DNA from: Nitrospirota bacterium
Lineage (GTDB): Bacteria > Nitrospirota > Thermodesulfovibrionia > UBA6902 > DSMQ01
Direction: 5' to 3'
Length of the DNA: 64,000 nucleotides
NCBI GenBank assembly: GCA_016208965.1
Contig: JACQXB010000004.1
Coordinates: 12,914 to 76,913, forward strand
Below the pieces are notes generated by a model, which saw only the letters and a list, made by a program, of their open reading frames with translations, was not told where the DNA came from and made no database searches. How positions within the stretch are numbered: position 1 is the stretch's first letter; every line of letters starts with the position of its first letter. The position numbers and the translations under genes are program-made. This document shows positions 16,130 to 37,161 of this stretch, one piece after another.

Positions 16130-16500
16130 TCGACTAAGTATACATCTTATTTAAGAAAGTCGCAACTTTATTGCATTGTGCTTTAACATAGTCGTCAAAT
16201 TATCATCTAAGCGCTTTATGTAAGACTTATAGGCGGGCATACGCAAAGGTTTCAAAGCCACCATATTGCGCAGGGATGCCGCGCGGAATATTTTATCATA
16301 TTCGCTCGCTAACCCCTCCACCTCAGGCGGACTGAGGCGCAGGGAATGCGCTCGCTATCCGTTTCAATTAAGTTGCCTGTGCCCTTTTTACTTTCAGGAA
16401 TATGGGAAGTGTCCCGTATTCTCCTCCCGTATTCTCCTTCCATGCAAGCACCTCTCTTACGTCATCTCTGTTAAATAGAACCGTCCCATTAAACCATTAA

Positions 16501-17435: not shown

Positions 17436-18587
17436 CTAAACAAAATTCCTATAATTCTTCACCCTGTTCCCCTTGAGAAAATTCAGTAGTCCTATAAAAA
17501 ATCCGGTGTTGGCAACGAGAAATGAAGAAATAAACCCGCTTAAAGGGACATCTATGCCTCTTAAAGAACCAAGGATACCCGCTAAGCCTATTATATATAC
17601 CATAGATTGCCCCCAAAACAATATCACATAAAATTCCCTTTCGCCTGTAGTATAAAGCCATAGATTGCTGCAAAACAAGGCAATAAGAAATACAGGACTG
17701 AGCCAGCGTAAAATTTTGTGTGACCAGATAGAAAAAGACATTTTCGGAAAAAGAAATGGGTTTAAAAGAGTTTTTCGTCTCATTATTCCAGTCAGATTTC
17801 GCAGGGTTATCCGCTGTCTGGCATTAACCTCGCCCTTTATGCTTGAAGGCATATAATCTGCCACAACAGCATCAAGGGAAATAACAGAGCGTTTTCCCCG
17901 TAATGCCATCTCAAGCGGCAGAATCATGTCATCGCCTGTATCAGAATCCAGAGGGACAAAATCAGATTTGCGAATGGCAAAACCCCATCCCGGAAGTGAA
18001 TGGAGCATTCCGAGATCAGATTCCGCCCGGCGAAGAAACTGTTCAATTTTCCAGTACAATCCATGGGCTTTATCAATATGTCCATCCTGTTTTCTTAATA
18101 ATGCATTGCCGCCGACGCACGCAATTTCAGTGTCAGCAAAATAGGGGATGAGATAGCGGAGAAAACTCCCGGCAAAGAGAGAATCTACATCTGTAAAAAC
18201 AATTATCTCGTTATTTGCATGTTCCACCCCAAAATTTTGAGCTGCACTCTTCCCCATGTTCTGCTTTAATTCATAAACAAAAACATTCCGAGCGCCAATG
18301 CTCTTTGCTCTCATAACTGTATCATCCGTGGAACCGTCTGACACAACAATTATTTCTATCATATTTGCCGGAAAGTCCAGTTCAATTATATTCTTCAGTT
18401 TATCAACTATTTTATCAGAAGCATTATAGGCAGGGATGACAACAGAGACCATATACGTTCCGTTTTCTAAAGGTTTATCCCTTTTAGTCCGGCTCAGTCC
18501 ATGCAAAAAAAACAGCAGAAGGGGATAATTCACCCATGAATGGAAAAGCATTGCCGCTGATAAGAAAAAAAATAATTCCACTAACAT
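17436..18587 (-). CDS. Family 2 glycosyltransferase with C-terminal TM helices
   Basis: VSVVIPAYNASDKI, VVSDGSTDDT, FTDVDS (DxD-like), C-terminal hydrophobic segments. Confidence 0.88.
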   Translation of the reverse strand: MLVELFFFLSAAMLFHSWVNYPLLLFFLHGLSRTKRDKPLENGTYMVSVVIPAYNASDKIVDKLKNIIELDFPANMIEIIVVSDGSTDDTVMRAKSIGARNVFVYELKQNMGKSAAQNFGVEHANNEIIVFTDVDSLFAGSFLRYLIPYFADTEIACVGGNALLRKQDGHIDKAHGLYWKIEQFLRRAESDLGMLHSLPGWGFAIRKSDFVPLDSDTGDDMILPLEMALRGKRSVISLDAVVADYMPSSIKGEVNARQRITLRNLTGIMRRKTLLNPFLFPKMSFSIWSHKILRWLSPVFLIALFCSNLWLYTTGEREFYVILFWGQSMVYIIGLAGILGSLRGIDVPLSGFISSFLVANTGFFIGLLNFLKGNRVKNYRNFV

Positions 18588-18733: not shown

Positions 18734-19651
18734 TCAAGGAAACTTAAACTGCAAATCCATAAACTGCCTTATCAACCCTGAATCATCCTTTATTCCGGTA
18801 TTAGGGCTGAGTTTCCAGCCATAAAAACCGATACTCCGTGTAAGATTATTCTGTTTGAAAAAGAATTCATACTGCTGTCTGACAGCGTCAGAAGGGAGTT
18901 TAGGCCGATTCTGTCTGTTATGCACGCTGATTGTTATGAGAACAGGGTAAATACGGGTTCTGTGTCTCTTAAAGATTTCAATAAGATTCTTCTGGCGATG
19001 CCCCGGATAGTCGTTCACATATGCGTGAATATCCAGCATATCAAATGCTTTTTCAGAAAAAAAATTATAGTGCTCGTCAACGGTGCCATTCCACGAAATA
19101 AAAACCTGACCGGCAGGGTCAAGACTCTTTATATGCCGATATATTTCTTCCTGTAATGATACTGGGATTTTCTTGTTTGCACTGCTTGGTTCATCACAGA
19201 TATGCCAAGCAAAAATGGAAGGATGGTTTTTCCAGCGGTTTATGAATTCAGCAGCCTTCGTATAATTATACGACCATCCACTTGCTGTTCTGTTAAGAAT
19301 AGGAGCCTTATCTATGGACATGATTACGCCCATTCCGTTTTTTCCCATTCGATCAAGATAATTTTGAATCTCTTCTTCAGTCCACTTCAATATATTAAAA
19401 GACTGAACAAGATTTACGCCTTTTTCTTTCAAAAATTTTAGATCCTCATCACTAATGTCTTTCTGCACCTGCCACATAAGGACAAGCCTGTCGTTCAGAG
19501 AGGGCTTAGAAAAAGCTGAAGACGGCCCGAAAAATACGACTGCTGACAAAAACACAAGAATAAGCATGAGATTGAAATCAAATTTTGCATAGTTTATTTG
19601 ACTCCTGAAAGACATCTTTTGCATCAAGGTTTTCATATTCAAAAGTTTCAT
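18734..19651 (-). CDS. Secreted TIM-barrel glycoside hydrolase-like protein (GH5/GH42-like)
   Basis: Signal peptide. FAWHICDEPSS resembles the NEP acid/base motif. Sits within the EPS operon. Confidence 0.4.
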   Translation of the reverse strand: MKLLNMKTLMQKMSFRSQINYAKFDFNLMLILVFLSAVVFFGPSSAFSKPSLNDRLVLMWQVQKDISDEDLKFLKEKGVNLVQSFNILKWTEEEIQNYLDRMGKNGMGVIMSIDKAPILNRTASGWSYNYTKAAEFINRWKNHPSIFAWHICDEPSSANKKIPVSLQEEIYRHIKSLDPAGQVFISWNGTVDEHYNFFSEKAFDMLDIHAYVNDYPGHRQKNLIEIFKRHRTRIYPVLITISVHNRQNRPKLPSDAVRQQYEFFFKQNNLTRSIGFYGWKLSPNTGIKDDSGLIRQFMDLQFKFP

Positions 19652-19739: not shown

Positions 19740-20569
19740 TTACTTCTTCCATCCGCTTAGCTCCGCGCCAACAAGGTTTTCGAGTTTATCTATTTCAGGA
19801 AGAAAAACAGGATCAAGAATAGCTCTGGCTTTTTCCGTAATCAGATTTTCCTTCTTATAATCATATCCCTTGAAAAAAAGATTCTTAATCCTGTCTGAGC
19901 GCTTTGCATGGGTCAGAAAACCGTATAGATGCAAACTTCTCAATATTATGGCAGCGCCCTTGGTCAGCAGTGTAGCCAGCGGGAACCTCGGAATAATCGC
20001 AGTATTTACCTTTTTATCAATAACCGAGGGAATAAAATTCTCATCCACTCCAAGAAACCTGAAAAGGTTCTTGCATAGTTCAACCGGCCTGCTGACAAGG
20101 TCATCATAGAACAAAATAAATATATTATCCCGCGAAAACATATCATAATACGGTTTGCCCAGAGAATAATAACGATTCTCATATATGAGTTCCGGCATTT
20201 TTCCCAGTGCCTCTTCAAATGAGCAATTTAACGCCCCCCCCTTAATTTGAATGAATAAACGGACTGAATCCTCTCGTAGGGATTTCTCAGACAGATGATG
20301 ATCTTACAGTCAGGCACGGTTTTCCTGATCCTCTCGGGCACTGCCGGATCAAATATATAGCGGTTAGATATCTCCCCGACTGCCGAAGCCTTGCCGCAAT
20401 CCTCAAAAAACTTCTTATACCACCCGACACCTTTCTCATAATGAATATTAAAAAACTGGGTCTCTTTAATGTTTTTTGCAGTGCAGACTTCGCGGTGTTC
20501 CAACAAAACTTTATACAACCATGAAGTTCCGGCGCGGCCGGTTCCGATACAAATGAAATTAGGAAGCAT
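19740..20569 (-). pseudogene. Sulfotransferase split by a frameshift at a poly-G(8) tract
   Basis: N-terminal part 20228..20569 has the PAPS motifs GTGRAGTSWL and RNPYERIQS. C-terminal part 19740..20198 has FILFYDDL. The run of 8 C on the plus strand at 20234-20241 separates the two frames. Confidence 0.8.
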
Positions 20570-20613: not shown

Positions 20614-21523
20614 TCACAATGGCCTTGCCGTTATTAGCGAAGTTGCTGTTGCAAGATCTCTCAGCGACATTTTTTTAAAACGCCTCGGCAATCTGGCTGA
20701 TTTCAGATAATCAACACTCCTATCATCAACTGTCACATCCGTTCCCACTATCTTCATTCCTGATTCCCTGAAGAGTTCCAGCATCTCAGAAACACGCAGT
20801 CTGTTGAGATAAGCAAATTTATTGTCTGCTATTATTCTCCACAACCAGTCTGGGAATTTTAAGAAGTGCATAGAGCAAATCCGCGGATCAGATTTTGCCC
20901 AGTGATCGGTATGATCAATCAAATGGGCTGCAAGGCCAGTACGCTTAAGCAGTCTCCTCCCCTCCTTAAGAATAGTACTGATATCTTTCTTATTAATATG
21001 TTCCATTGTATTAATCGTGCATATGGCATCAAATGTTTCATCCGGCATGGCAACCTTTGATGCATCAGCAGAACAGTGATAAAAAATTTGGCAAGTATCA
21101 AGAACATCACTTAAATTCTTCGTGATACATATTCTTTCATACCGGTCTTCTTTAAACCACCTGCCATAGATACCCAGCAGGACATCCACGTTTTCCCGCA
21201 TCCATCCGACCATCTGTTCAATCAGAGCGTCGTCAAGCAAATTTGTTATATCAAATGTATCAGTCCGCTCAACCCCAAACCAGATAGAAACCCACCGGAG
21301 ATGTCGGGATACGTCCGGTACCTATTTCCATAATTCTCGCACTTGAAAATTTAAACCCTTTGGCCGCCAACGCCGATATTAGAAGAGCATTCCTCTGAAA
21401 CCTAGCCTTGAAATCCGGATTTTTCAGACCGCCTATCTTTTTCTGAAGCCATTGGTACGGTATCTCTCCATACGGGATGTTTCCAAACACTGCGTATCCA
21501 AGCATTTTTATCCTGTAATCCAT
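20614..21523 (-). pseudogene. Class I SAM-dependent methyltransferase interrupted by a 1-nt frameshift
   Basis: 21269..21523 carries motif I IMEIGTG. The frame of 20614..21240 stays open upstream (FGVERTDTFDITN) and overlaps the other frame near 21270-21300. Confidence 0.65.
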
Positions 21524-22867
21524 TTATCTCCTCTGACTAATAGAGTTTTTCACCTCGGCCGCCTTAATCTCTCGCCTTATAAAATCATGCACATAAGCAA
21601 GCATGACCCACGCAACAGGCATGGTTGTAGTTGAACGGAAGAAGATTATAAAGATAGCAGTTGAGAAGATAGACACTAACAAAGATTTTCTAAGTATTGT
21701 CTCTTGTCCCCAGTATTTCACTTTGTCGCGGCTCCTCCAGCAATGATAAACGATTAGAATAAGAAGTCCAAGTCCTATCACACCCATATCTAAGGTTATT
21801 ATTGCCCCGTATGCATTTGGTTTTTGTTCTTCTCCTGATGCGAATCTCTGGGAAATGGAATATCTATACCAATTCAGATTAAGAAGAGTGCTTAATTTGG
21901 AATACATGTCTTGGTATGATGCGATTCCATGACCCATCCCAAATCCATAATAAAGAGACGCGTAGCCCATCGCCACAGTTATAAATCGTCCGCCAGAAAG
22001 TGATGCGATACCTCCATACGAAAAAATTGATTCACTCTCTACCAAATTAATAAGTTTATTTAAGAGCGCAACAAATTTGACAGTATCCGTATAATAATTG
22101 AGCGTAATTATAGTAACTATAACAAATATTGGGACTATCGGCATCGTCATGAAGAACGCTTTTATTTTCTTAGCAAGTGAGCTATACCAGAATAACATGA
22201 ATAATAAAACCGAAAAGAAAATAAAGAGAAGCAAAAAAGTGGTACCTGATTTGTTCATGAACAACATAGTCAGTACAGCAATAGTAATCATGCTGAATAC
22301 TTTGCCTGATATTTTATTAATCATGTAGAAATATGCGCCAGTTGCCAACATCAGGGTGACAATGAAGCCTGCTCCGGAAGGCTCCTGGGCGAGAAACGAC
22401 ACGCCCCTTCCACCAAGGCCGAATGGTGATCCTGAAAAACGAGGAATTATAAGTTGTATATACGACTGCGCCCACACAAGAAGGCCAAAGGTTTGAAGTG
22501 TTCCCACAACGAAATATAATATGAAAGCGGTGTAAAATATTTTTGGGGAAAGCAAAGCTGTATTGTCCTTAAGAGCGAGAAAAATAAGCAATGGTAATAC
22601 ATAACTGCCCGCCGCCAAGATTACTGACCCTGGAGATCTTCCTAATAGAATAGAGGCTATTGAGAACATGAATAGAAACAAGAAGAAAAGTATAATTAAG
22701 AATGAAATCCTGTCTTTCTTGAATGAGAAAAGCATGATACTAATGAGTGCCACAAGAGCGCAGAACGGCTGGACCTCAGCCTCAATCCAAGGCACTATTT
22801 TAAAAAAAGGGAAAAATGAAAGAAATAAAACTATATTTAGAAGAGTGCTTTTCCTTATTGATCTCAT
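21524..22867 (-). CDS. Polytopic membrane protein, O-antigen/EPS polymerase (Wzy-like)
   Basis: About 11-12 TM helices with one large loop, located between the flippase and the modification genes. Confidence 0.55.
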   Translation of the reverse strand: MRSIRKSTLLNIVLFLSFFPFFKIVPWIEAEVQPFCALVALISIMLFSFKKDRISFLIILFFLFLFMFSIASILLGRSPGSVILAAGSYVLPLLIFLALKDNTALLSPKIFYTAFILYFVVGTLQTFGLLVWAQSYIQLIIPRFSGSPFGLGGRGVSFLAQEPSGAGFIVTLMLATGAYFYMINKISGKVFSMITIAVLTMLFMNKSGTTFLLLFIFFSVLLFMLFWYSSLAKKIKAFFMTMPIVPIFVIVTIITLNYYTDTVKFVALLNKLINLVESESIFSYGGIASLSGGRFITVAMGYASLYYGFGMGHGIASYQDMYSKLSTLLNLNWYRYSISQRFASGEEQKPNAYGAIITLDMGVIGLGLLILIVYHCWRSRDKVKYWGQETILRKSLLVSIFSTAIFIIFFRSTTTMPVAWVMLAYVHDFIRREIKAAEVKNSISQRR

Positions 22868-22910: not shown

Positions 22911-24260
22911 TTATTTATTTATTTTTAAAAATGGCATATATACAGTATAGAAATTAAAATATTTCTTTATGCACAAAACAGCAGCTATGTTCCAAAATAT
23001 CATCGCAATCATATTTGATATAGCTGCTCCGGCAATTCCCAATTTTGGAATCAACAAATAGTCGAGCATGATATTCAGCATTACAGCGAATATCATTATA
23101 TATTGAAAGGCCTTCTCTTTCCCAGTCATCTGTAATATAAAACCTACAGAGCCAGAAACCGCATTTATGAACTGCCCTATGGTTAAATAAATCAAGGCAT
23201 AGCGGCCCTCTATAAAATCTTTCCCAAATATGCCCATAACAAAAGAGGGGAACGTCAGAAATATGCAAACCACCGGCAAAGAAACCCAAAATATCATTTT
23301 CGTAGAATGTTGGGCCATCTTGCCAAGCGATTTGATATCATTTTTCCCGAAGAATTCCGCAAATTTGGGAGCAGCAATACTGTTAACTGCAAAAAGAGGA
23401 ACACTAATAACAGTTGCAATTTTTGTAGCAATATTATAAATGCCAACATCTTTATCGGACATGAATATACCCAACATCACTGTGTCAGTCCACTGCATCA
23501 GATATAGCATTGAGCCGGATAATAACATCGGCAAGGAAATTCTCAGAATGTCAATGATTGCAAAACCGGGCTGAGAGATTTCACCCTCAACCCTGCGATT
23601 TATATTACGCCACCACCACTTAAAACTCAATAAAGCAGCAACGTATGTTCCACAGGTAAAAGCAATGATGGGCATTTTAGCATGCTTATCGGCTAATAAG
23701 AAACCCATTAAGATAAGACTGCCGAATGCAAACGGTGCAGCATACTGAAGAAATGTAAACTCCCTGATTTTCTTTATGCCTCTTAATGCCTGAGCATTTA
23801 TACTCATTACAGCCATAGGAATTATCGCCAAAGAAATAATTCTAAAATGTAGCATCAAGTACTCTTTGTTGAGGCTTCTAGCAATATGGGGCGCAAAGAC
23901 GAACGTAATAATGGTAACCAAAATGCTGAATGGCACTATTATCTTTAAAGCCTGACTATAAACGCGCCTAACCGAGTCCCACTTGTTTTGAGATGAATAC
24001 TCCGCCACAAAGCGAATCAAGAAAGTATCTGTCCCCAATTTGGACAGCATGGAAAATATCTGAAAAAAAGTAAAAGACAAAACAAATATGCCTGCAATCT
24101 CAGCACCATAATTCCTTGCGAGCAACAAGTAAAAAACATACGCCGCAGCTACGCCACCAATCGTAACTATTAAAGCAGTAGAACTGCCGCTTACCAGTTC
24201 ACGCAAATGGCTATCAAGTTTTTTATCAGTTAGGTAACTCAGCAGAGCAATCATTATCAA
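22911..24260 (-). CDS. wzx: Oligosaccharide flippase (MOP/Wzx family)
   Basis: 449 aa, about 12-14 TM helices. N-terminal SGSSTALIVTIGGVAAAYVFYLLLARNYG pattern typical of polysaccharide biosynthesis flippases. Confidence 0.8.
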   Translation of the reverse strand: MIMIALLSYLTDKKLDSHLRELVSGSSTALIVTIGGVAAAYVFYLLLARNYGAEIAGIFVLSFTFFQIFSMLSKLGTDTFLIRFVAEYSSQNKWDSVRRVYSQALKIIVPFSILVTIITFVFAPHIARSLNKEYLMLHFRIISLAIIPMAVMSINAQALRGIKKIREFTFLQYAAPFAFGSLILMGFLLADKHAKMPIIAFTCGTYVAALLSFKWWWRNINRRVEGEISQPGFAIIDILRISLPMLLSGSMLYLMQWTDTVMLGIFMSDKDVGIYNIATKIATVISVPLFAVNSIAAPKFAEFFGKNDIKSLGKMAQHSTKMIFWVSLPVVCIFLTFPSFVMGIFGKDFIEGRYALIYLTIGQFINAVSGSVGFILQMTGKEKAFQYIMIFAVMLNIMLDYLLIPKLGIAGAAISNMIAMIFWNIAAVLCIKKYFNFYTVYMPFLKINK

Positions 24261-24266: not shown

Positions 24267-25502
24267 CTATATATGAGTAATGTGATTTGGCCGGGCTTTA
24301 CTGGTCAAGATAGGTACCTTATCCGCCAAGTCGATCTCAGCACGCCACTTGGAACGGCAAGGGATCTTTGACATATCACACCTGTCCTTATATTTTTGTG
24401 CAATGGTAATCACTTCCTCCATAAGCCCCCCGCTCAGAGTTATAGGAGACAGCCCGAGTTCCATGAATTTTTTATTTGAGACCTTCAACGTATTTTCGTC
24501 TGCCTCTACACGGGGATTAACAAGGTATTGAATTTCCGCCCCGATCATTTTCGCAACCTTCCCTGCCAGCCATTTCACGGTATGCGTCTCTGTGGCCTGA
24601 TTGAAAATCTCGACACGGCTATGCTGTTCCGGAGGATTCTCAATTGCAAGCTTAATGCACTTCACAGTGTCACGAATGTGAATAAACGCCCGCGTTTGCC
24701 CTCCGCTACCATGAACCGTTAGCGGGTATCCAATGGCGGCCTGCATGAGGAAGCGGTTAAGGACAGTGCCATAGTCTCCATCGTAATCGAAACGGTTTAT
24801 CAACCTCTCGTCAAGCAAAGTTTCATCGGTATTCGTACCCCATACGATTCCCTGATGCAGATCGGTAATCCTCAGACGGTCGTTCTTGTTGTAATAGTAG
24901 AACATGAGCGCGTCCTGAGTCTTGGTCATATGGTAGACGCTTCCAGGGTTCGCCGGATAAAGTATTTCGAGATCTTTCTTCTCTCCATCAACATCAACCG
25001 CCACTTTAAGATAACCTTCAGGAATCTCCATGCCGGCCATCCCGTACCCATACACGCCCATGGTCCCAAGATGGACCACATGGATATCGAGGCCCGATTC
25101 CACGATCGCGCAGAGGATATTGTGGGTTGCATTTATATTGTTATTTACTGTGTAACGCTTGTGAAACGCAGATTTCATTGAGTACGGCGCGGCTCTTTGC
25201 TCGGCAAAATGAACAATCGCTCTGGGCTCGATCTCCTTTAACAGTGTCAAGAGCCTGTGATAATTCTCCGCAACATTGATATTGATGAATTTGATGTCTC
25301 TTCCTGTATGCTGCTTCCACGCTTTAATCCGTGTCCCCATCGGTTGTATCGGCGTCAGGGAATACGCCTCAAGTTCATTATCGATATTGCGCCTGCTTAA
25401 ATTGTCAACTATGGTCACATCATATCCATGCTGTGATAAAAATAGCGCTGTTGGCCAGCCACAGAAGCCGTCTCCTCCAAATATTACAACCTTTTCTTCC
25501 AT
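24267..25502 (-). CDS. sqdB: UDP-sulfoquinovose synthase (SQD1/SqdB family SDR)
   Basis: GGDGFCGWPTAL, VDNLSRR, SLTPI, HFAEQRAAPYSM, LGTMGVYG, SVYHMTKTQD, DLHQGIVWG, RFDYDGDYGTVLNRF, GGQTRAF.HIRDTV all track the remembered Arabidopsis SQD1 sequence. Start taken at MEEKVV with the AGGAGG RBS; the ORF-track start at 25592 is an upstream extension. Confidence 0.85.
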   Translation of the reverse strand: MEEKVVIFGGDGFCGWPTALFLSQHGYDVTIVDNLSRRNIDNELEAYSLTPIQPMGTRIKAWKQHTGRDIKFININVAENYHRLLTLLKEIEPRAIVHFAEQRAAPYSMKSAFHKRYTVNNNINATHNILCAIVESGLDIHVVHLGTMGVYGYGMAGMEIPEGYLKVAVDVDGEKKDLEILYPANPGSVYHMTKTQDALMFYYYNKNDRLRITDLHQGIVWGTNTDETLLDERLINRFDYDGDYGTVLNRFLMQAAIGYPLTVHGSGGQTRAFIHIRDTVKCIKLAIENPPEQHSRVEIFNQATETHTVKWLAGKVAKMIGAEIQYLVNPRVEADENTLKVSNKKFMELGLSPITLSGGLMEEVITIAQKYKDRCDMSKIPCRSKWRAEIDLADKVPILTSKARPNHITHI

Positions 25503-25705
25503 AACTCCTCTCCTCCTTGAAACTTTGCGGAATTCCCAGCTTTTTTGTGTCACATTCTTAATTCGGAGAATCTCCCTTTTATTATCAAACAAGCTGTCAT
25601 CCTTTCAAAGCTGAACCCCCGACTTCTGATTAAATGTAATGTTATTTTGCAAGATACTTGCCTCAATCAACTTCTTATCTTTTTTAGATACGCCTTTCCT
25701 TGTTT

Positions 25706-26107
25706 TTAACTTGTCAGCCAATTTTCAATCTTGAGTCCGGGAATCCTTTTAAAATGATTTTCGTTATTCGTCACAAGGACAGCATCGTGATTTTTCACAA
25801 TGCTCGCTATCAGAATGTCCGCATCATTAATCAGCGCCCCTGATTTCCTTAAGGAAGCATAGATTTCGCCGCCTATTCTTGACGACTCGTAGGTTTCGTC
25901 CATTAATATTGATGAGTTGACCAACGCACTGAGGAATCCCTCTTCTTCCAATTTACCACTATCAAATATTCCCTTAAAAAACTCATATACGCTGAGCCAT
26001 GATAATCCGATAGAGTCATCTTCCCGCAGATTTTCAATTCTGATTTTTATAGATTCATTTCCTCTGAAGTATTCTATTAGGATGTCGGTATCAAGACAGT
26101 AGATCAC
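25706..26107 (-). CDS. vapC: VapC PIN-domain toxin
   Basis: MIYCLDTDILIEY, DILIASI, LVTNNENHFKRIPGLKIENW. Confidence 0.88.
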   Translation of the reverse strand: MIYCLDTDILIEYFRGNESIKIRIENLREDDSIGLSWLSVYEFFKGIFDSGKLEEEGFLSALVNSSILMDETYESSRIGGEIYASLRKSGALINDADILIASIVKNHDAVLVTNNENHFKRIPGLKIENWLTS

Positions 26108-26358
26108 AGTTTGATATCGCCCCTGCCGAATTTTTTTCGGTCTTTAAAGATACCCCTAAAAATATTAATCTCATCTGCATTTTTCTGGTTCCATATACCA
26201 AATAAATCAAGAAACTCTGCCTTGTTAAACTTTGCTGTTTCAATTATTATGCGTATTTTTCTGCCCCTTTTAAGAGAGAGCTTGCTTGCTATTTCTTTAG
26301 GAATTGACAGGTGACCATCATTCAGATATTCTGCCATATACGCTGCTCTATTCCCCAT
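26104..26358 (-). CDS. vapB: AbrB/SpoVT-fold antitoxin (VapB)
   Basis: HLSIPKEIASKLSLKRGRKIRIIIE. Overlaps the vapC start. Start chosen at MGNRAAY with the AGGAGG RBS. Confidence 0.75.
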   Translation of the reverse strand: MGNRAAYMAEYLNDGHLSIPKEIASKLSLKRGRKIRIIIETAKFNKAEFLDLFGIWNQKNADEINIFRGIFKDRKKFGRGDIKL

Positions 26359-26380
26359 TTCTTTGTCCTCCTTTTTATGG

Positions 26381-26392
26381 TTAATTATACCA
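26381..26392 (-). promoter_or_regulatory. Extended -10 promoter element (TGGTATAAT) for vapBC
   Basis: The minus strand reads tatGGTATAATtaacc, about 26 nt upstream of the ATG at 26358. Confidence 0.4.
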
Positions 26393-26524
26393 TAGTTTTG
26401 CAATTAACCGAACCAAAGAGGGACACATCCTATTTTCTAAAAAATCTCCCTTTATAAGAAACCAAATATAAACACAAAAGGTGTCAGGCATTGAAATGTG
26501 AATTAACATTCCATGTTTTATATT

Positions 26525-26710
26525 TTACTTTTCTGAAAACGGATTAATGATTTTAAGTTTTTTCTCAATGACCTGCCCCTGCTGAAGGTCTTCAGTATAG
26601 AGAGCAGAGCAGTTACTCTCCAATGCTGAAGCTATGATAAGGCTGTCCCAATATGCGAAACCATCTATGTGCAGCGAGCTTATAGACCAAGACGGCACTG
26701 AATAAAACAA
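26525..26710 (-). pseudogene. PIN-domain remnant (C-terminal half only)
   Basis: DGFAYWDSLIIASALESNCSALYTEDLQQGQVIEKKLKIINPFS parallels the C-terminus of 27604..28020. Confidence 0.6.
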
Positions 26711-27052
26711 GGAACTCTGCTGAAAAAGTGACGATATAATCTTTCTTCATCTTTTGAATAATCTATGAAGCATTTTTATCATCTTGAATTGCCTTTACCA
26801 TGTTTTTAGCTGCATTGCCTTCTCCATAAAGTTTTATATTAAAATCAAACTGCCTGTCTTTCATCTTATAAAATGTATTTACAGAAAAGGGGACAGGCTA
26901 CTTTTTTCTGGTTTGTCTGGTCTATCTCAAATGTCATTGAGTCATAGCGTCGTTGCGTCATACAAATAGCTTACAAGCGAACAAGCCAACAAGCTGGGAA
27001 GCATGGAAAACGTGAGCCGTAAACAGCATGGAGCAAAGAGCAAGGCGTTCGG

Positions 27053-27265
27053 TTATGCCGCTACCAGAACGTCTTTCAGCTTCTCTTCCAGTGCCTTGAT
27101 CATATTCTGGATCGCCTCAACCTCTTTTTCCTCAAAGTATCTCTCCCCGCACTGTGAGCACACATAACCAGGGATTTTCTCAATGAAGAGATGATATCCA
27201 TTTCTGTCCACGGTGTATGAGACTGAGGCTTTTTCCATTTCCCCATTGCAGAACAGGCACTTCAT
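27053..27265 (-). CDS. YgiT/MqsA-type zinc-finger antitoxin
   Basis: CLFCNGEM...CSQCGERYF, two CxxC pairs. Overlaps the upstream DUF4258 gene. Confidence 0.8.
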   Translation of the reverse strand: MKCLFCNGEMEKASVSYTVDRNGYHLFIEKIPGYVCSQCGERYFEEKEVEAIQNMIKALEEKLKDVLVAA

Positions 27266-27579
27266 TTTTTTCTCCTTTTCTTAAAATCCTCTTGCCATTT
27301 TTCCAAAGACGGTATATATGCCGTTATTATAGCAAGATATTCCTCTTTTGGCGCGCATACTATATGGACGGGCCTTTTGGTATCAGGCATGGCGAACATC
27401 AGACAACTATGCCCCCTCTTGTCTTCTGGGTAATCCTCTATGATCTCGCCATTGAACACTACCTGCCTCACTTCTTCCACCGATATGAGCTCGTCCTCAG
27501 CGTTCATCTCATCAACTGCATGCGCAGTATAGATGATCCTCTTTGTTGCTGCTCGCCTTATTTGATCAACAAGATTCAT
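27262..27579 (-). CDS. DUF4258-family toxin-like protein
   Basis: IYTAHAVDEMNAEDELISVEEVRQVVFNGEIIEDYPEDKRG...PVHIVCA pattern. Confidence 0.7.
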   Translation of the reverse strand: MNLVDQIRRAATKRIIYTAHAVDEMNAEDELISVEEVRQVVFNGEIIEDYPEDKRGHSCLMFAMPDTKRPVHIVCAPKEEYLAIITAYIPSLEKWQEDFKKRRKK

Positions 27580-27603
27580 ACGTAAAGGGGACGGTTCTAT
27601 TTT

Positions 27604-28020
27604 TCATGAAAACGGATTAATGATCTTGAGTTTTTTTTCAATGATCTGGCCGTCCTGCATGTCTTCCGTATAAAGCGTTGAACAGTTATTTTCCAATGCA
27701 ACAGCCAATATTAAACTGTCCCAATATGCGAAACCATTGAGTATGCTGATATCCATAGCCTTTATAACCGATGAGGAAAGGACGTCAACTACATTAAAAT
27801 TTGAAGATATTTCCAACCCCATTTGTCTCGCTTCCTCTTTTTCCTTCAATCCTTTTTTGACCAGGACATGAAAGAATTCTCCAAGAACCTGTGTGCTGAT
27901 GATAATATCTTCAAAATATTTATCAACAAGGCTCTTTATTGTTTCTGTTTTTTCTTTGTTTGAATCGTCAGCATACAGGTATACCCAGAGATTTGTATCT
28001 ACGAAAACCCTATCGTTCAT
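27604..28020 (-). CDS. PIN-domain toxin
   Basis: VFVDTNLWVY, GFAYWDSLILAVA, LYTEDMQDGQ. Confidence 0.85.
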   Translation of the reverse strand: MNDRVFVDTNLWVYLYADDSNKEKTETIKSLVDKYFEDIIISTQVLGEFFHVLVKKGLKEKEEARQMGLEISSNFNVVDVLSSSVIKAMDISILNGFAYWDSLILAVALENNCSTLYTEDMQDGQIIEKKLKIINPFS

Positions 28021-28231
28021 GCAATTCTTCTCTATTGAACTTGTAGTCTTTGGGTAGGGTTATAGCATGTTTTTTGACAAATTCAAAAAAAACTTTTTTA
28101 TCATTTATGGGGCTCTTAAGTTTTAAGTTTTTTTTGCCATATTTTGTTAAAAGATACTCATAGAAATCGATTAACTCCTTTTTCACTTCCTTGGGCAGAA
28201 TATCAATATCTATCTCTTTTAGTCTTGCCAT
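28010..28231 (-). CDS. Putative antitoxin (DUF2281-like) of the downstream PIN toxin
   Basis: 73 aa; overlaps the PIN gene start; LPKEVKKELIDFYEYLLTKY motif. Confidence 0.5.
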   Translation of the reverse strand: MARLKEIDIDILPKEVKKELIDFYEYLLTKYGKKNLKLKSPINDKKVFFEFVKKHAITLPKDYKFNREELHER

Positions 28232-28391
28232 ATATTTCCTCCTTTACCTCTGCTATTTTTATTGCCATAAAACCCCCTCTTGCCTTATTTTAGCACAATC
28301 TCTCAGCAAACCTCACATGGATTTTGACATCCCCCATGGAAACAAACAAGGGCATAAATCTAAGAGTAAATCTAAGAGGGACACAGAGCCT

Positions 28392-28512
28392 GTCTAAAAA
28401 CTATAATTCCATCAGACTGTCATTCCCCGACTTGATCGGGGAATCCAGTTTTTTCAATAGGTTCTGGATTGTCCAGTCAAGCTGGACAATGACAAATACT
28501 GAGTTTTTAGAC
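28392..28512. mobile_element. 121-bp MITE with 11-bp perfect TIR (GTCTAAAAACT) and an internal GTCATTC...AATGAC cloverleaf unit (28419-28493)
   Basis: TIRs at 28392-28402 and 28502-28512. The internal hairpins match the copy at 10888-10960 with compensatory stem changes. Confidence 0.7.
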
Positions 28513-28623
28513 AAGCTCCACATCCCATATTCTAAAAAATCTCCCTTTATTATCAAACAAGCTGTCTCCCATCCAAACTGAAGGTGTAAAAGGGGACGCA
28601 ACCCTTTAACCCATCAGAAGTAT

Positions 28624-29022
28624 TCAGATTAACCAGTTTTCTAACTTCAAATCTTCTATCCGCTCAAAATGAAAAACATTATTTGTGATCAAAATGCAAT
28701 CGTTGGATACGGCTACCGAGGCTATCAGAATATCGAAATCTTCGATCACATTACCCCTTGCTCTGAGATCTGTCTTGATCTTTCCAAAGAGTCTTGCAGA
28801 TTCATCGCTCTCAGACAATATAGCCAGGTTTCTCTTGAAGGTTTCTATGCGGTGCAGATTTGCATCAACTTTTTTTGAATTATAGGCGCCGAAATATAGC
28901 TCAGCCAATACGCTATACGACAATGCTAATGAATAGGCCCCAACTTCTTGAACCTTCTTCATCAATTGTTGATTGCCGTTCAAAAGATAAATACATGTAT
29001 TAGTGTCCAAAAGATACTTCAA
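28624..29022 (-). CDS. vapC: VapC PIN-domain toxin
   Basis: MKYLLDTNTCIYLL, DILIASVAV, LITNNVFHFERIEDLKLENW. Confidence 0.88.
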   Translation of the reverse strand: MKYLLDTNTCIYLLNGNQQLMKKVQEVGAYSLALSYSVLAELYFGAYNSKKVDANLHRIETFKRNLAILSESDESARLFGKIKTDLRARGNVIEDFDILIASVAVSNDCILITNNVFHFERIEDLKLENWLI

Positions 29023-29276
29023 AATATCTTCTCTGCCCTGTTGGTAGATTTCCTACTTGAATAAATATCCCTTATCTGCTCTTCAACTGACCTGTCATCT
29101 TCCCATGTGCCACAGACTGAGAGGAATTCTTCGGTTGTTTTTTTCTCATCAAATTCAGAAAGCATGATCTCGCTTCTCATGAAATGGATTATCCTTGCCA
29201 GTTTTTCCTGCGCTGGTGCAGGTAATGCCTGCATTTCTCTAAGCACCTTTTCTTCATAGACCGTTTTCGTATGCAT
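29019..29276 (-). CDS. Putative antitoxin of the downstream VapC
   Basis: 85 aa; 4-nt overlap with vapC; the family was not recognised. Confidence 0.5.
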   Translation of the reverse strand: MHTKTVYEEKVLREMQALPAPAQEKLARIIHFMRSEIMLSEFDEKKTTEEFLSVCGTWEDDRSVEEQIRDIYSSRKSTNRAEKIF

Positions 29277-29831
29277 AAAACCTCCTTTATAAATTTCTGC
29301 GCTTCAGATATGGCAGTCCCGGCAGATGCACTATCCAATTTTCTTGCCCTCTATTATAACATTGTTCTCATTTTTTACCAGTTCTATTTTATCAAAACGG
29401 TAATGTCAAAACTTCTGTGTAAATTCATTTAAGGGTTTAATTCTCCATTAAAAGTTAGAAATAAATAAATAATAGGGACACTTCCCATATTATTATATTT
29501 GCTGATTAATTTTTTCATATTCTATGTATGGTTCAAACCTTCACAGAATTGGGGTCTTGAATCTTGAATTTTCCTTTCATCGTCCTCGCTATCCCTTTCC
29601 TCCGAATAACGTTCCCCATGGGGAATTTCTTACTTATTTCAACCAAAAAACCATTCATAATCATCATGGCTGCCGACCCAGAACCATGTCACTGCATGAA
29701 ACAGGGGGTCACATCTTCATATATCATTTAATATCTCCTCGACCTTTTTGAAAATCGGAACTATTTTAACTTTCCTTATATCCGAAACCTTTTGATTACT
29801 CCCGATTTTATGCCTTTCGGTAAACTCTATT

Positions 29832-30263
29832 TTACCAAGCCATTCGTTTTATAAATTCACTGGCTGTATTAATATCAATCCCTGCATAAGTCTTCAGGTT
29901 TAATAGATGACTATCACCTGAAACAATAACAGTTGCCTGTGCCGATATAGCACATTCCAATACCCGATTATCGTCAGGGTCTTCTTTTATCACATTAATC
30001 GTATGCCCCGCTTCTACTAAAGTGACGAACAATGCAATCTTTGCAACTGCCTTTTCAACAGCGTATTCTTTGCCTTCAAGCTTTTTAGAGAACTTCTCCC
30101 TTTTTAAAACTCCCTCTAACTTGTTCAATATTTCCATTGATACAAAAAGATGAATTTCTTTTCTCTCAGATTTCTCAAGAATCCTGGCTTCATTACCGTT
30201 CCACAAAAGTCCTGAAATAAGGGTATTCGTATCAAGAACGACCTTTTTCAAAATTACCGTCAT
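29832..30263 (-). CDS. PIN-family toxin (TIGR00305-like)
   Basis: VVLDTNTLISGLLW start; D-rich C-terminal VSGDSHLL. Confidence 0.78.
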   Translation of the reverse strand: MTVILKKVVLDTNTLISGLLWNGNEARILEKSERKEIHLFVSMEILNKLEGVLKREKFSKKLEGKEYAVEKAVAKIALFVTLVEAGHTINVIKEDPDDNRVLECAISAQATVIVSGDSHLLNLKTYAGIDINTASEFIKRMAW

Positions 30264-31278: not shown

Positions 31279-31313
31279 TGCTCATTGCTCATTGCTTTTG
31301 CCTCATTGCTATT
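31279..31313. repeat. GCTCATT-type heptamer array (i)
   Basis: tgctcat tgctcat tgctttt gcctcat tgctatt, overlapping the stop of the TPR gene. Confidence 0.8.
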
Positions 31314-32187: not shown

Positions 32188-32230
32188 TGCTCATTGCTCA
32201 TTGCTCATTGCTCGTTGCTCATTGCTCATT
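32096..32230. repeat. GAGCAAT/GCTCRTT heptamer array (ii): short forward part, then about 13 inverted-orientation units
   Basis: agcaatgagcaatgag at 32096-32111; ctcgttg/ctcattg units at 32141-32230. Confidence 0.9.
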
Positions 32231-32635
32231 TTACGCTTGATCACGTTGTTTCCTAATGGCTATTTTGAGACCACCTATTATCCGGGAGACCTCAATCGCC
32301 AGGTCGCTTATATCCTTAAACTCTTCTGATGTAATATATCCAACATCAAGGGCTGCATAAAGTTGCGAACGGAGTTCAGCGCAAGATGCCTTTGCAATAA
32401 CAATGAATTGATGAAATTCTGCTCTACTACCACGCTCAAAGCCTTCAGCAAGATTTGACATGATTGATACAGCGGCTCTTTGAATTTGTTCGCGCAGTCC
32501 AAAATCCCTTGAGAATGCTCCCTTTCCAGTCATATGGTAAACATGTTTTGTTAATTTTCTGGCCTTTTGCCATGCAACAAGATCCTCAAACTTTTCAACT
32601 TTCATTTTTCTTCCTACTCGTTGCTCATTGCTCAT
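32231..32635 (-). CDS. Four-helix-bundle protein (23S rRNA intervening-sequence protein / Avd-like family)
   Basis: [13 protein letters not shown]...[42 protein letters not shown]. The likely true start is MKVEKF at 32605; the first 10 codons are heptamer-repeat sequence. Confidence 0.85.
32607..32634. repeat. GCTCRTT heptamer array (iii)
   Basis: ctcgttg ctcattg ctcattg cttgccc. Confidence 0.8.
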
Positions 32636-37149: not shown

Positions 37150-37161
37150 TTATATTCCTCC

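What the first reader, a model, noticed from the sequence alone, without database searches (positions are those of the whole stretch)
24267..25502. UDP-sulfoquinovose synthase embedded in a Wzx/Wzy polysaccharide operon alongside a sulfotransferase
The sqdB/SQD1-like gene is the first gene of a long minus-strand operon. The operon continues with the Wzx flippase, a Wzy-like polymerase, a methyltransferase, a PAPS-type sulfotransferase, a secreted glycoside hydrolase, a GT2 and the priming transferase. In bacteria sqdB is normally linked to sqdX/sqdD for the sulfolipid SQDG, and no such lipid glycosyltransferase is seen here. The context instead suggests sulfoquinovose as a building block of a secreted or capsular polysaccharide that may additionally be O-sulfated and methylated. 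Sulfoquinovose in glycans is established for Sulfolobus N-glycans. A bacterial Wzx/Wzy sulfoquinovose EPS would be unusual.
Basis: partly seen in the sequence, partly recalled or inferred. Interest (0 to 1): 0.7.

Follow-up and report, generated by a model that had tools for sequence, protein, structure and literature searches.

The report
Sulfoquinovose synthase gene inside polysaccharide locus
An anaerobic Nitrospirota bacterium keeps a genuine sulfoquinovose-sugar synthase gene inside a surface-polysaccharide gene cluster instead of next to a sulfolipid enzyme, and related bacteria repeat this arrangement, which points to an undescribed kind of sulfonated bacterial polysaccharide.

Summary
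The gene at 24267-25502 (-) is a genuine SqdB/SQD1-type UDP-sulfoquinovose synthase. It matches Arabidopsis SQD1 over its full length (E=2e-96). It is 65-69% identical to bacterial SqdB genes that sit beside an SqdX-like lipid glycosyltransferase. Every catalytic residue I checked is conserved. It heads the variable half of a complete Wzx/Wzy plus Wza-Wzc-Wzb polysaccharide locus (13.5-40 kb). No SqdX- or SqdD-type lipid transferase lies in the 64 kb window.

The arrangement recurs. Close homologues sit in Wzx/Wzy, capsule or LPS-type clusters in other Nitrospirota and Desulfobacterota, in a Mariprofundus MAG and in two proteobacterial MAGs. About half of these clusters carry a sulfotransferase.

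The sulfotransferase is frameshifted at a G8 tract. The methyltransferase is frameshifted. The adjacent priming transferase is a truncated remnant beside an IS66 fragment, with an intact copy 2.6 kb downstream.

Sulfoquinovose as a building block of a bacterial surface glycan is the best-supported reading (about 0.6), but it is not chemically proven. I found no paper describing such a polymer. I rate it a new variant of known parts, of moderately high interest.

The parts
24267..25502 (-). sqdB: UDP-sulfoquinovose synthase (SQD1/SqdB/Agl3 family), 411 aa, intact
   Evidence: Matches PDB SQD1 chain 1qrr at E=2e-96 over the full length. NF041015 is the best NCBIfam hit. H96, R101, T145, M146, Y182, H183, K186, Q209 and R327 are conserved. 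It is 65-69% identical to SqdB genes linked to an SqdX-like gene.
25503..25608 (-). Leader of sqdB: AGGAGG ribosome-binding site and the best sigma-70-like match in the region (TTGAAA-16-GATAAT, 25608-25581)
   Evidence: These are consensus matches only. Across the region, promoter-like sites were not clearly above chance.
22911..24260 (-). Wzx-type flippase (Polysacc_synt/MatE), 449 aa, 6 nt after sqdB
   Evidence: Pfam PF01943, PF13440 and PF01554. It is 48% identical to the Wzx next to sqdB in L002.
21524..22867 (-). Wzy-like polymerase candidate: about 10-11 TM helices with a roughly 100-aa loop, no Pfam family
   Evidence: No Pfam or PDB hit. Hydropathy scan. It is 53% identical to the equivalent gene in L002 and has a relative in the Mariprofundus locus L012. 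The AlphaFold model was unusable, pLDDT 39.
20614..21523 (-). SAM-dependent methyltransferase, split by a frameshift near 21277-21281 into 84-aa and 208-aa ORFs
   Evidence: tblastn of the 311-aa L002 orthologue hits two frames. Sequence and three-frame translation. The repaired protein gives Methyltransf_11/23/25 hits.
19740..20569 (-). PAPS-type sulfotransferase (Sulfotransfer_1/3), split by a -1 frameshift in a G8 tract at 20234-20241
   Evidence: Adding one G restores a 276-aa ORF collinear with the intact 277-aa orthologue in L004. An independent Logan contig, seen in 4 samples, has the same split.
18734..19651 (-). Signal-anchored (beta/alpha)8 glycoside-hydrolase-like protein (clan GH-A-like), from a small family that travels with sqdB
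   Evidence: Weak Pfam GH2_C hit, E=3e-5. AlphaFold pLDDT 88.7. Foldseek top hits are GH2, GH53 and GH5 with TM about 0.5. Only 13 homologues exist, and the four on contigs over 20 kb share contig lengths with sqdB homologues.
17436..18587 (-). Membrane GT2 glycosyltransferase, 383 aa. It is the only glycosyltransferase in the variable region besides the primer, and so the candidate sulfoquinovosyltransferase (inferred).
   Evidence: Pfam GT2 families. Best PDB match is the membrane GT2 6yv7. Orthologues at 52% identity sit next to the primer gene in L002 and L004.
16846..17400 (-). Truncated N-terminal remnant (184 aa) of a priming phosphoglycosyltransferase
   Evidence: Has the CoA_binding_3 domain and a TIGR03025 N-terminal match only, with no Bac_transf domain.
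14996..16839 (.). Inserted segment: IS66-family transposase fragment (16501-16839, +) and AAA_14/DUF4143 ATPase gene (14996-16129, -), with higher G+C (0.47)
13575..14816 (-). Intact priming polyprenyl-phosphate glycosylphosphotransferase (WcaJ/WbaP/EpsB class), 413 aa
   Evidence: TIGR03025 382.9 bits, above its cutoff, and Bac_transf E=3e-66. About 145 bp at its 5' end (14668-14811) are identical to 17279-17422, after which identity drops to about 72%.
31309..40001 (-). Conserved export and assembly half of the locus: TPR (31309-32187), PF05635 protein (32231-32635), Wzy_C-domain protein (32625-34190), CpsB/Wzb phosphatase (34172-34948), Wzc tyrosine kinase/co-polymerase (34945-37149), Wza (37162-38166), FecR-domain protein (38150-38833), EpsL-like outer-membrane barrel (38823-40001)
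   Evidence: The same gene order precedes sqdB in L004.
25706..30263 (-). Island of four PIN-domain toxin genes between the export half and sqdB

Best explanation
The locus at 13.5-40 kb is a Wzx/Wzy-dependent, Wza-Wzc-Wzb-exported surface polysaccharide locus. Its strain-specific region carries its own nucleotide-sugar gene, sqdB.

Proposed pathway, with each step marked as shown or inferred:
1. SqdB converts UDP-glucose and sulfite into UDP-sulfoquinovose. This chemistry is established for SQD1 and Agl3. It is inferred here from 45% identity to SQD1, 65-69% identity to SqdB genes linked to an SqdX-like gene, and complete conservation of the tested catalytic residues.
2. The priming transferase puts a sugar-1-phosphate on undecaprenyl phosphate. 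The domain is shown; the sugar is unknown.
3. The membrane GT2 is the only other glycosyltransferase in the variable region. It adds sulfoquinovose to the lipid-linked unit, probably as a beta-linkage because GT2 enzymes invert (inferred).
4. In orthologous loci a SAM methyltransferase and a PAPS sulfotransferase decorate the unit. In this assembly both genes are frameshifted, so this strain would make an undecorated polymer, or would switch sulfation through the G8 tract (inferred).
5. Wzx flips the unit, the Wzy-like protein polymerises it, and Wzc, Wzb and Wza control length and export. The periplasmic GH-A-like protein trims or releases the polymer. This step is inferred from the standard pathway.

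The product would be a polysaccharide bearing a C-sulfonate sugar.
For: Enzyme identity:
- Searches place the protein in the SqdB family. 90 alignment columns are invariant across 91 sequences including SQD1.
- Only 6 of 381 columns separate polysaccharide-linked SqdB from SqdB linked to an SqdX-like gene, and none of these is a known catalytic position.

Operon structure:
- sqdB stops 6 nt before wzx, and all the genes are co-directional with short gaps.
- All the machinery of a complete Wzx/Wzy pathway is present in the window.
- No GT4 or GT8 lipid transferase is among the window ORFs of 120 aa or more that I scanned.

Recurrence in other loci:
- L002 has Wza-Wzc-Wzb ... sqdB-Wzx-MT-Wzy-GT2-PGT.
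- L004 has Wza/Wzc/Wzb/Wzy_C/TPR/APS kinase-sqdB ... Wzx ... sulfotransferase-GT2-PGT.
- L006, L087, L088, L090 and L091 show the same kind of embedding.
- Mariprofundus L012 has Wzx-GT2-MT-sqdB-GT2-Wzy-like-GT4-ST-...-PGT.
- The proteobacterial MAGs L020 and L022 do too.
- Ca. Sulfobium L094 places sqdB beside GT9 and GT2 LPS-type genes.
- The GT4 genes in these loci are not SqdX orthologues (22-28% identity).
- By contrast, a lipid-type GT4 follows sqdB directly in 8 Deinococcota and cyanobacterial loci.

General rule: polysaccharide clusters usually carry the genes for the unusual nucleotide sugars of their own repeat unit. This is established knowledge of O-antigen and capsule genetics.
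Against: - No chemical data exist, and no sulfoquinovose-specific glycosyltransferase is known to compare the GT2 with.
- Only 64 kb of the genome could be searched, and sqdB and sqdX are unlinked in some cyanobacteria (PMC13436972). A distant sqdX therefore cannot be excluded.
- This copy of the cluster shows damage: two frameshifted decoration genes, a truncated primer gene and an IS remnant.
- The join across the 145-bp repeat could be an assembly ambiguity, because the Logan contig ends inside it.
- No sulfite or PAPS supply gene is in the window.
- The Wzy assignment of the 447-aa protein rests on topology and position only.
Confidence: 0.6

Rival explanations
1. The gene supplies UDP-sulfoquinovose for the membrane sulfolipid SQDG. 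An SqdX- or SqdD-type transferase encoded elsewhere in the genome completes the pathway, and the position inside the polysaccharide locus is incidental.
For: The enzyme cannot be distinguished from lipid-pathway SqdB at catalytic positions. sqdB and sqdX are unlinked in Synechocystis and Microcystis (PMC13436972). Only 64 kb of the genome was available.
Against: sqdB is packed 6 nt ahead of wzx. The same embedding recurs in at least 12 loci of different gene content and phylum. None of the neighbouring GT4 genes is an SqdX orthologue. I found no report of SQDG in Nitrospirota, though the library is incomplete.
Confidence: 0.15
2. Sulfoquinovose is built into a lipid-linked glycan, but the end product is not a free or capsular EPS. 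It is instead an O-antigen or LPS-core decoration, or a protein O-glycan, attached by the Wzy_C-domain (ligase or oligosaccharyltransferase family) protein at 32625-34190.
For: The 521-aa protein carries PF04932. Among its NCBIfam matches, all far below cutoff, is an 'O-glycosylation ligase, exosortase A-associated' model. In Ca. Sulfobium, sqdB sits beside GT9 heptosyltransferases, which are LPS-core type. In L092 and L089, sqdB sits beside a polyprenyl-phosphate GT2 with GtrA and a GT-C.
Against: Wza, Wzc and Wzb in the same locus are the hallmark of exported capsule or EPS.
Confidence: 0.15
3. In this strain the variable region is a decaying, non-functional cassette acquired by recombination. 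sqdB is intact only because the decay is recent.
For: There are frameshifts in the methyltransferase and sulfotransferase genes, a truncated primer gene, an IS66 fragment and a foreign-looking ATPase gene with G+C of 0.47. A 145-bp identical repeat marks a recombination junction.
Against: sqdB, wzx, the wzy-like gene, the GH-like gene and the GT2 are all full-length and 48-84% identical to their orthologues. An intact primer gene lies 2.6 kb downstream. The sulfotransferase defect is a single base in a G8 tract, which is reversible by slippage. Decoration genes are not needed to make the backbone.
Confidence: 0.2
4. The protein is an SQD1-family enzyme with a different product, such as another C6-modified or 4-keto-5,6-ene sugar, or it uses a different substrate such as UDP-GlcNAc.
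For: It scores below the NCBIfam equivalog cutoff (345 against 575). NCBI annotates it only as an 'NAD-dependent epimerase/dehydratase family protein'.
Against: The cutoff is uninformative. Arabidopsis SQD1 itself scores 484.7, and a cyanobacterial SqdB linked to an SqdX-like gene scores 348.9. All the catalytic residues I tested are invariant, and no group-specific substitution falls at a known active-site position.
Confidence: 0.05

Closest known systems
SqdB/SQD1 with SqdX/SQD2 (or SqdD) sulfolipid (SQDG) pathway of cyanobacteria, plants and some proteobacteria
   Same: It has the same first enzyme. The match to SQD1 is full-length and the catalytic residues are identical. The protein is 65-69% identical to bacterial SqdB genes followed directly by a lipid-type GT4.
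   Different: No SqdX or SqdD partner is present in the window. The gene is fused into a Wzx/Wzy operon, so the acceptor is inferred to be an undecaprenyl-linked glycan rather than diacylglycerol.
Agl3-dependent N-glycan of Sulfolobus acidocaldarius (sulfoquinovose in an archaeal glycoprotein glycan)
   Same: UDP-sulfoquinovose is used for a lipid-linked glycan rather than a membrane lipid. The residues shown to be essential in Agl3 (His95, Arg101, Met145, Tyr182, Lys186; PMC4388408) are conserved here.
   Different: This is a bacterium rather than an archaeon. The product would be a polymerised repeat unit (Wzx/Wzy plus Wza/Wzc export) rather than an AglB-transferred N-glycan. I did not have the Agl3 sequence to place it in the tree.
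Synechan (xss) sulfated exopolysaccharide system of Synechocystis PCC 6803 (PMC8205485)
   Same: Both are Wzx/Wzy-type EPS loci with Wza/Wzc-type export and PAPS-type sulfotransferases in a bacterium, giving a strongly anionic sulfur-bearing polymer.
   Different: As I recall, synechan carries O-sulfate esters only and its cluster has no sqdB. I did not open the paper to check this. Here the sulfur would enter as a C-sulfonate sugar, and the sulfotransferase is broken in this strain.
Group 1 capsule / colanic acid and PEP-CTERM-type EPS loci (Wza-Wzb-Wzc with WcaJ-like primer)
   Same: The machinery and layout match, with a conserved export block followed by a variable block holding Wzx, Wzy, glycosyltransferases and sugar-synthesis genes. 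There are below-cutoff matches to EpsL, EpsF, EpsB_2 and exosortase-associated models.
   Different: No exosortase gene was identified in the window. The dedicated sugar gene is sqdB, for which I found no precedent in such loci.

Membership tests
UDP-sulfoquinovose synthase (SQD1/SqdB/Agl3, EC 3.13.1.1) | Full-length homology to biochemically and structurally characterised SQD1, clearly separated from other SDR sugar enzymes | tested here: met
   SQD1 chain 1qrr matches at E=2e-96 over residues 4-387. The next family, UDP-glucuronate decarboxylase, reaches only E=2e-12 and covers only the C-terminal third.
UDP-sulfoquinovose synthase (SQD1/SqdB/Agl3, EC 3.13.1.1) | GxxGxxG NAD motif, the catalytic Thr145/Tyr182/Lys186 with His183, and the residues essential in Agl3 (His, Arg101, Met next to the Thr) | tested here: met
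   GGDGFCG, AEQR, LGTMG, YHMTK, HQG and NPRVE all align with SQD1. In the alignment, 85 of 85 sequences keep H96, R101, T145, Y182, H183, K186, Q209 and R327. The residue list comes from PMC4388408.
UDP-sulfoquinovose synthase (SQD1/SqdB/Agl3, EC 3.13.1.1) | Score above the NCBIfam NF041015 equivalog cutoff (575 bits) | tested here: inconclusive
   The window protein scores 345.2. The control shows the cutoff is too narrow: Arabidopsis SQD1 scores 484.7 and a cyanobacterial SqdB linked to an SqdX-like gene scores 348.9.
UDP-sulfoquinovose synthase (SQD1/SqdB/Agl3, EC 3.13.1.1) | Close relationship to SqdB genes in genetically coherent sulfolipid operons | tested here: met
   The protein is 65-69% identical to SqdB of loci where a lipid-type GT4 follows directly (L011, L031, L071 and others). 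It nests inside the bacterial SqdB tree.
UDP-sulfoquinovose synthase (SQD1/SqdB/Agl3, EC 3.13.1.1) | [quoted passage not shown] | not testable with these tools
   This needs an enzyme assay.
SQDG sulfolipid pathway | An SqdX/SQD2-type GT4 or SqdD-type GT8 lipid sulfoquinovosyltransferase | tested here: not met
   None is among the window ORFs of 120 aa or more that I scanned with Pfam or NCBIfam. The rest of the genome could not be searched, so genome-wide absence remains untested.
Wzx/Wzy-dependent polysaccharide locus with Wza-Wzb-Wzc export | Priming polyprenyl-phosphate glycosylphosphotransferase | tested here: met
   The gene at 13575-14816 scores 382.9 bits against TIGR03025 (cutoff 295.55) and has Bac_transf at E=3e-66. 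The adjacent copy at 16846-17400 is truncated.
Wzx/Wzy-dependent polysaccharide locus with Wza-Wzb-Wzc export | Wzx flippase | tested here: met
   PF01943, PF13440 and PF01554 all score above their gathering thresholds.
Wzx/Wzy-dependent polysaccharide locus with Wza-Wzb-Wzc export | Wzy polymerase | tested here: inconclusive
   The 447-aa protein has about 10-11 TM helices and a large loop, but no Pfam or PDB match and a failed structure model. A separate Wzy_C-domain protein lies at 32625-34190.
Wzx/Wzy-dependent polysaccharide locus with Wza-Wzb-Wzc export | Outer-membrane exporter Wza, tyrosine kinase/co-polymerase Wzc, and phosphatase | tested here: met
   Poly_export with SLBB domains, Wzz/GNVR with a tyrosine-kinase domain (TIGR01007 at 199.7 bits, above cutoff), and CpsB_CapC at E=1.6e-54.
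PAPS-dependent carbohydrate sulfotransferase | Intact Sulfotransfer_1/3 domain protein | tested here: not met
   The domain is present. The reading frame is broken at a G8 tract, and only an added G restores the 276-aa protein.
CAZy glycoside hydrolase, clan GH-A | (beta/alpha)8 barrel with an acid/base Glu on strand 4 and a nucleophile Glu on strand 7 | tested here: inconclusive
   The model is confident (pLDDT 88.7) and Foldseek hits GH2, GH53 and GH5 at TM about 0.5. The DEP, HxY and GW motifs are invariant, but I saw no invariant Glu at the expected strand-7 position. The protein matches no existing GH family at family level.

The most novel reading that the evidence does not exclude
Anaerobic and microaerophilic sulfur- and iron-cycling bacteria may make an undescribed class of surface polysaccharides whose repeat unit contains sulfoquinovose, a C-sulfonate sugar. 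The carriers seen here are Nitrospirota, Desulfobacterota, Zetaproteobacteria and some other Proteobacteria. These polymers would often carry O-sulfate esters and O-methyl groups as well, would be assembled by Wzx/Wzy pathways, and would come with their own small family of GH-A-like processing enzymes. Sulfation may be phase-variable in some strains through a poly-G tract. If so, there would be a pool of sulfoquinovose in anoxic sediments that is independent of phototroph sulfolipid.
Probability: 0.45. Interest if true: 0.78.

Novelty: new variant of a known kind. Interest (0 to 1): 0.62.

Why it matters
Sulfoquinovose is treated almost entirely as the headgroup of the phototroph sulfolipid SQDG, plus an archaeal N-glycan. 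A 2026 review of bacterial sulfoquinovose cycling (PMC13436972) discusses only the SqdB-SqdX lipid route.

If bacteria in dark, anoxic habitats polymerise sulfoquinovose into capsules or EPS, three things follow:
- There is a non-phototrophic source of this abundant organosulfur sugar. That bears on who feeds sulfoquinovose degraders in sediments and bioreactors.
- Bacterial polysaccharide chemistry gains a C-sulfonated building block that sulfatases cannot remove, which is relevant to the sulfated polymers reported from granular sludge and biofilms.
- Candidate sulfoquinovosyltransferases (the membrane GT2, and in related loci a polyprenyl-phosphate GT2) and a candidate sulfoquinovose-glycan hydrolase family become testable.

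There is also a practical point. Public annotation calls this protein a generic 'epimerase/dehydratase' because the curated model cutoff excludes even Arabidopsis SQD1, so such loci are currently invisible to automated surveys.

Tried and rejected
- NCBIfam equivalog cutoff as a membership test. I rejected it after the control: SQD1 itself fails the cutoff.
- Co-occurrence test of the membrane GT2 with sqdB by scanning metagenome contigs. The exact-peptide patterns found only one irrelevant 1.9-kb hit, so the scan yielded nothing.
- Structure prediction of the Wzy-like protein from the 3 available homologues. The pLDDT was 39, so the model was unusable and I did no fold search.
- Pfam at E up to 1 and a PDB sequence search for the Wzy-like protein found nothing.
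- An Rfam scan of 13-41 kb found no leader or riboswitch family.
- Promoter and terminator scans were not above the shuffled expectation and serve only as weak support.
- Literature searches combined sulfoquinovose or sqdB with exopolysaccharide, capsule, O-antigen, Wzy, flippase, EPS, granular sludge, Nitrospirota and Desulfobacterota. No report of a bacterial sulfoquinovose-containing polysaccharide turned up, but the library lacks most subscription journals.
- I considered whether polysaccharide-linked SqdB carries specificity-changing substitutions, for example for UDP-GlcNAc. I rejected this: only 6 of 381 columns differ between the groups, none at known active-site positions.
- I considered whether the GT4 genes beside sqdB in L087, L088 and L006 are SqdX. 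I rejected this at 22-28% identity, which is generic GT4 similarity.
- I considered sequencing error as the cause of the frameshifts. It is unlikely to be general, because the long housekeeping genes in the window are intact and an independent assembly seen in 4 samples has the same splits. I did not examine read-level data.
Full report
OBSERVATION

The minus strand carries an ORF from 25592 to 24267. The ATG at 25502 follows an AGGAGG ribosome-binding site and gives a 411-aa protein. This protein is identical to NCBI MBI4653434.1 from a Nitrospirae/Nitrospirota MAG, where it is annotated only as 'NAD-dependent epimerase/dehydratase family protein'.

IDENTITY OF THE ENZYME

- The protein matches the crystallised Arabidopsis SQD1 over its whole length (1qrr, E=2e-96, residues 4-387). 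The next PDB family, UDP-glucuronate decarboxylase, reaches only E=2e-12 over the C-terminal third.
- Reading the alignment in SQD1 numbering, the GxxGxxG motif, His96, Arg101, Thr145, Met146, Tyr182, His183, Lys186, Gln209 and Arg327 are all present. These include the SQD1 catalytic triad and the residues whose alanine substitution inactivated Sulfolobus Agl3 (PMC4388408).
- In an alignment of 85 sequences these positions are invariant, apart from one substitution at M146 in another sequence.
- The NCBIfam equivalog model NF041015 is the best hit, but at 345 bits against a cutoff of 575. I tested whether that matters. Arabidopsis SQD1 scores 484.7, and a cyanobacterial SqdB followed by an SqdX-like gene scores 348.9. 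The cutoff is simply too narrow, which explains the generic public annotation.
- A scan of one genome per GTDB species found 588 relatives. The best 80 are 65-74% identical and include cyanobacteria, Deinococcota, Actinomycetota, Bacillota and many alphaproteobacteria.
- In eight of these loci a 381-387-aa GT4 follows sqdB directly. Its best family matches are lipid-headgroup glycosyltransferases, which is the expected SqdX arrangement.
- The window protein is 65-69% identical to those SqdB proteins and 45% identical to SQD1.
- Only 6 of 381 columns separate polysaccharide-linked from SqdX-linked sequences, and none is a known active-site position.

I therefore file the protein as a member of the SQD1/SqdB family. 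The enzymatic reaction itself is inferred, not shown.

ANATOMY OF THE LOCUS

Reading the minus strand from high to low coordinates, the conserved export half comes first:
- EpsL-like outer-membrane barrel (38823-40001)
- FecR-domain protein (38150-38833)
- Wza (37162-38166)
- Wzc (34945-37149)
- CpsB/Wzb (34172-34948)
- Wzy_C-domain protein (32625-34190)
- PF05635 protein (32231-32635)
- TPR protein (31309-32187)

Four PIN toxin genes follow (25706-30263). Then comes the variable half:
- sqdB
- wzx, 6 nt later
- an 11-TM Wzy-like gene
- methyltransferase
- sulfotransferase
- a signal-anchored GH-like protein
- a membrane GT2
- a truncated primer gene
- an IS66 fragment
- an AAA_14/DUF4143 ATPase gene
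- an intact WcaJ/WbaP-class primer gene (13575-14816)

Housekeeping genes flank the locus: aromatic amino-acid genes at 8.6-13.2 kb and biotin genes at 46-48 kb. None of the roughly fifty window ORFs I scanned is a GT4, a GT8 or a sulfate-activation enzyme.

- The sulfotransferase is two ORFs of 113 and 152 aa. The break lies in a run of eight G at 20234-20241. Adding one G restores a 276-aa protein collinear with the intact 277-aa orthologue of locus L004.
- The methyltransferase is also split, into 84 and 208 aa, near 21277-21281.
- An independent Logan assembly found in four samples has the same splits, and the long housekeeping genes are intact. So these are probably real features of the population and not general assembly noise.
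- The primer gene next to the GT2 keeps only its N-terminal 184 aa. About 145 bp at its start are 100% identical to the start of the intact downstream copy, after which identity falls to about 72%. That looks like a recombination junction. The Logan contig ends inside this repeat, so the assembled join deserves read-level confirmation.

COMPARATIVE CONTEXT

This is the strongest argument.

- I retrieved annotated neighbourhoods for eleven close homologues at 71-84% identity. Eight lie in clusters with Wzx and/or Wzy, often with Wza, Wzc or Wzi: L002, L004, L006, L087, L088, L090 and L091, plus the window itself.
- L002 and L004 share orthologues of the window's Wzx, Wzy-like, GH-like and GT2 genes at 48-53% identity.
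- In L004 an APS kinase gene overlaps the start of sqdB.
- L005 is a glycosyltransferase-rich cluster with a sulfotransferase-glycosyltransferase fusion.
- In Ca. Sulfobium (L094), sqdB lies beside GT9 and GT2 genes of LPS-core type.
- Outside this clade, a Mariprofundus MAG has Wzx-GT2-MT-sqdB-GT2-Wzy-like-GT4-sulfotransferase-aminotransferase-dehydratase-primer. Two proteobacterial MAGs have Wzc, Wzx or a primer, and a sulfotransferase around sqdB.
- A sulfotransferase is present in about half of these loci: the window, L004, L005, L006, L088, L012, L020 and L022.
- The GT4 genes in these clusters are not SqdX orthologues, at 22-28% identity.
- In the tree, polysaccharide-linked SqdB genes are not a single clade. 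The same enzyme has therefore been recruited repeatedly.

A second recurring partner is a GT2-DUF2304 protein resembling polyprenyl-phosphate glycosyltransferases. It occurs in L005, L089 and L092, and in L092 it comes with GtrA and a PMT-type GT-C. This suggests a polyprenyl-phosphate-sulfoquinovose route for periplasmic glycosylation.

MECHANISM

The steps are set out under the best explanation.
- Shown: the domain content, gene order, intactness or damage of each gene, and the recurrence of the arrangement.
- Inferred: that the GT2 uses UDP-sulfoquinovose, that the unit is flipped, polymerised and exported, and where the sulfite comes from. In sulfate- or sulfite-respiring Nitrospirota, sulfite is a cytoplasmic intermediate. 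I did not establish that this MAG is such an organism.

THE GH-LIKE PROTEIN

- Only 13 homologues were found among 5.8 billion proteins.
- Its model is confident (pLDDT 88.7). It is a (beta/alpha)8 barrel most like GH2 beta-glucuronidases and galactosidases, GH53 and GH5, with TM about 0.5.
- The DEP, HxY and GW motifs are conserved, but I saw no invariant strand-7 glutamate.
- It is a plausible polymer-processing enzyme tied to sulfoquinovose glycans. That is speculation.

RIVALS

- An unlinked sqdX making SQDG cannot be excluded without the whole genome.
- The glycan may end up on LPS or on proteins rather than as capsule.
- This particular copy may be decaying.
- A different enzymatic product is unlikely.

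Probabilities are given with each rival.

LITERATURE

Eight full-text searches found no report of sulfoquinovose in a bacterial polysaccharide. The 2026 review of bacterial sulfoquinovose cycling treats only SqdB-SqdX. The known non-lipid precedent is the Sulfolobus N-glycan. The library lacks most subscription journals, so the absence of a report is not proof.

VERDICT

The main idea is strengthened by comparative genomics. The 'sulfated and methylated' detail is undermined for this strain. Nothing is chemically proven.
- It is a new variant built from known parts.
- It is of moderately high interest, because it makes a specific, testable prediction about a new class of sulfonated bacterial glycans.

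Noticed in passing
window 20234-20241 (minus-strand G8 inside the sulfotransferase gene 19740-20569): The frameshift sits exactly in an eight-G homopolymer, and one extra G restores the full gene. The L004 orthologue has no such tract. This looks like a slipped-strand, phase-variable switch for polysaccharide sulfation, or a fixed single-base loss.
   Followed up: partly
window 14668-14811 and 17279-17422, with the 2.6-kb segment between them: Two primer-gene 5' ends share about 145 bp at 100% identity and then drop to about 72%. They flank an IS66 transposase fragment and an AAA_14/DUF4143 ATPase gene with higher G+C (0.47). Recombination between the repeats would delete the insert and make a hybrid intact primer gene. 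An independent assembly breaks inside the repeat.
   Followed up: partly
window 18734-19651; alignment A2; contigs of P0275, P0279 and P0283: The 305-aa GH-A-like TIM-barrel protein belongs to a family of only 13 detectable members. It appears to co-occur with sqdB on every contig long enough to judge. It has the DEP, HxY and GW motifs but no obvious strand-7 nucleophile.
   Followed up: partly
L005 13081-14127; L089 11269-12321; L092 297-1364 (with L092 5449-7133): A GT2-DUF2304 protein lies next to sqdB in three loci. The copies are 37-41% identical to one another, and their best matches are polyprenyl- or dolichyl-phosphate glycosyltransferases. In L092 it comes with a PMT-type GT-C and GtrA, and in L089 with an LPG_synthase_TM protein. 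This suggests a polyprenyl-phosphate-sulfoquinovose donor for periplasmic glycosylation.
   Followed up: partly
L004 9339-10004; L082 about 191 nt upstream of sqdB: An APS kinase gene (cysC, above the NCBIfam cutoff) overlaps the start of sqdB in the closest syntenic locus. Another lies beside sqdB in an Arenicella MAG. This links PAPS supply to these clusters. No such gene is in the window.
   Followed up: partly
L094 3939-9826: In a Ca. Sulfobium MAG, sqdB is divergently adjacent to two GT9 heptosyltransferase-family genes and several GT2 and GT4 genes. This is an LPS-core-like context rather than an EPS one.
   Followed up: no
window 25706-30263: Four PIN-domain toxin genes, presumably with small antitoxin genes, are packed between the conserved export half and the variable half of the polysaccharide locus. 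L002 has a Phd/PIN pair at the edge of its locus.
   Followed up: no
window 32231-32635; L090 5300-5674 and 7033-7386: Genes for PF05635 '23S rRNA intervening sequence protein' four-helix-bundle proteins sit inside polysaccharide loci, in both the window and a relative. Their role there is unknown.
   Followed up: no
L011, L036, L058, L080 (directly upstream of sqdB, e.g. L036 8678-9913): In loci with sqdB followed by an SqdX-like gene (Trueperaceae, a Deinococcaceae MAG and uncultured-bacterium MAGs), a 407-417-aa membrane GT2 precedes sqdB. Its matches are to HpnI, HpnB and MftF. It forms a conserved three-gene unit of unknown purpose.
   Followed up: no
window 43235-45343, 41516-42352 and 40016-40642: Three sizeable ORFs (702, 278 and 208 aa) next to the polysaccharide locus have no Pfam match.
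   Followed up: no
window 24267-25502 (database annotation): Public annotation of this protein and its Nitrospirota relatives is the generic 'NAD-dependent epimerase/dehydratase family protein'. The NCBIfam UDP-sulfoquinovose synthase cutoff (575 bits) excludes even Arabidopsis SQD1 (484.7 bits), so automated surveys will under-count sqdB.
   Followed up: yes
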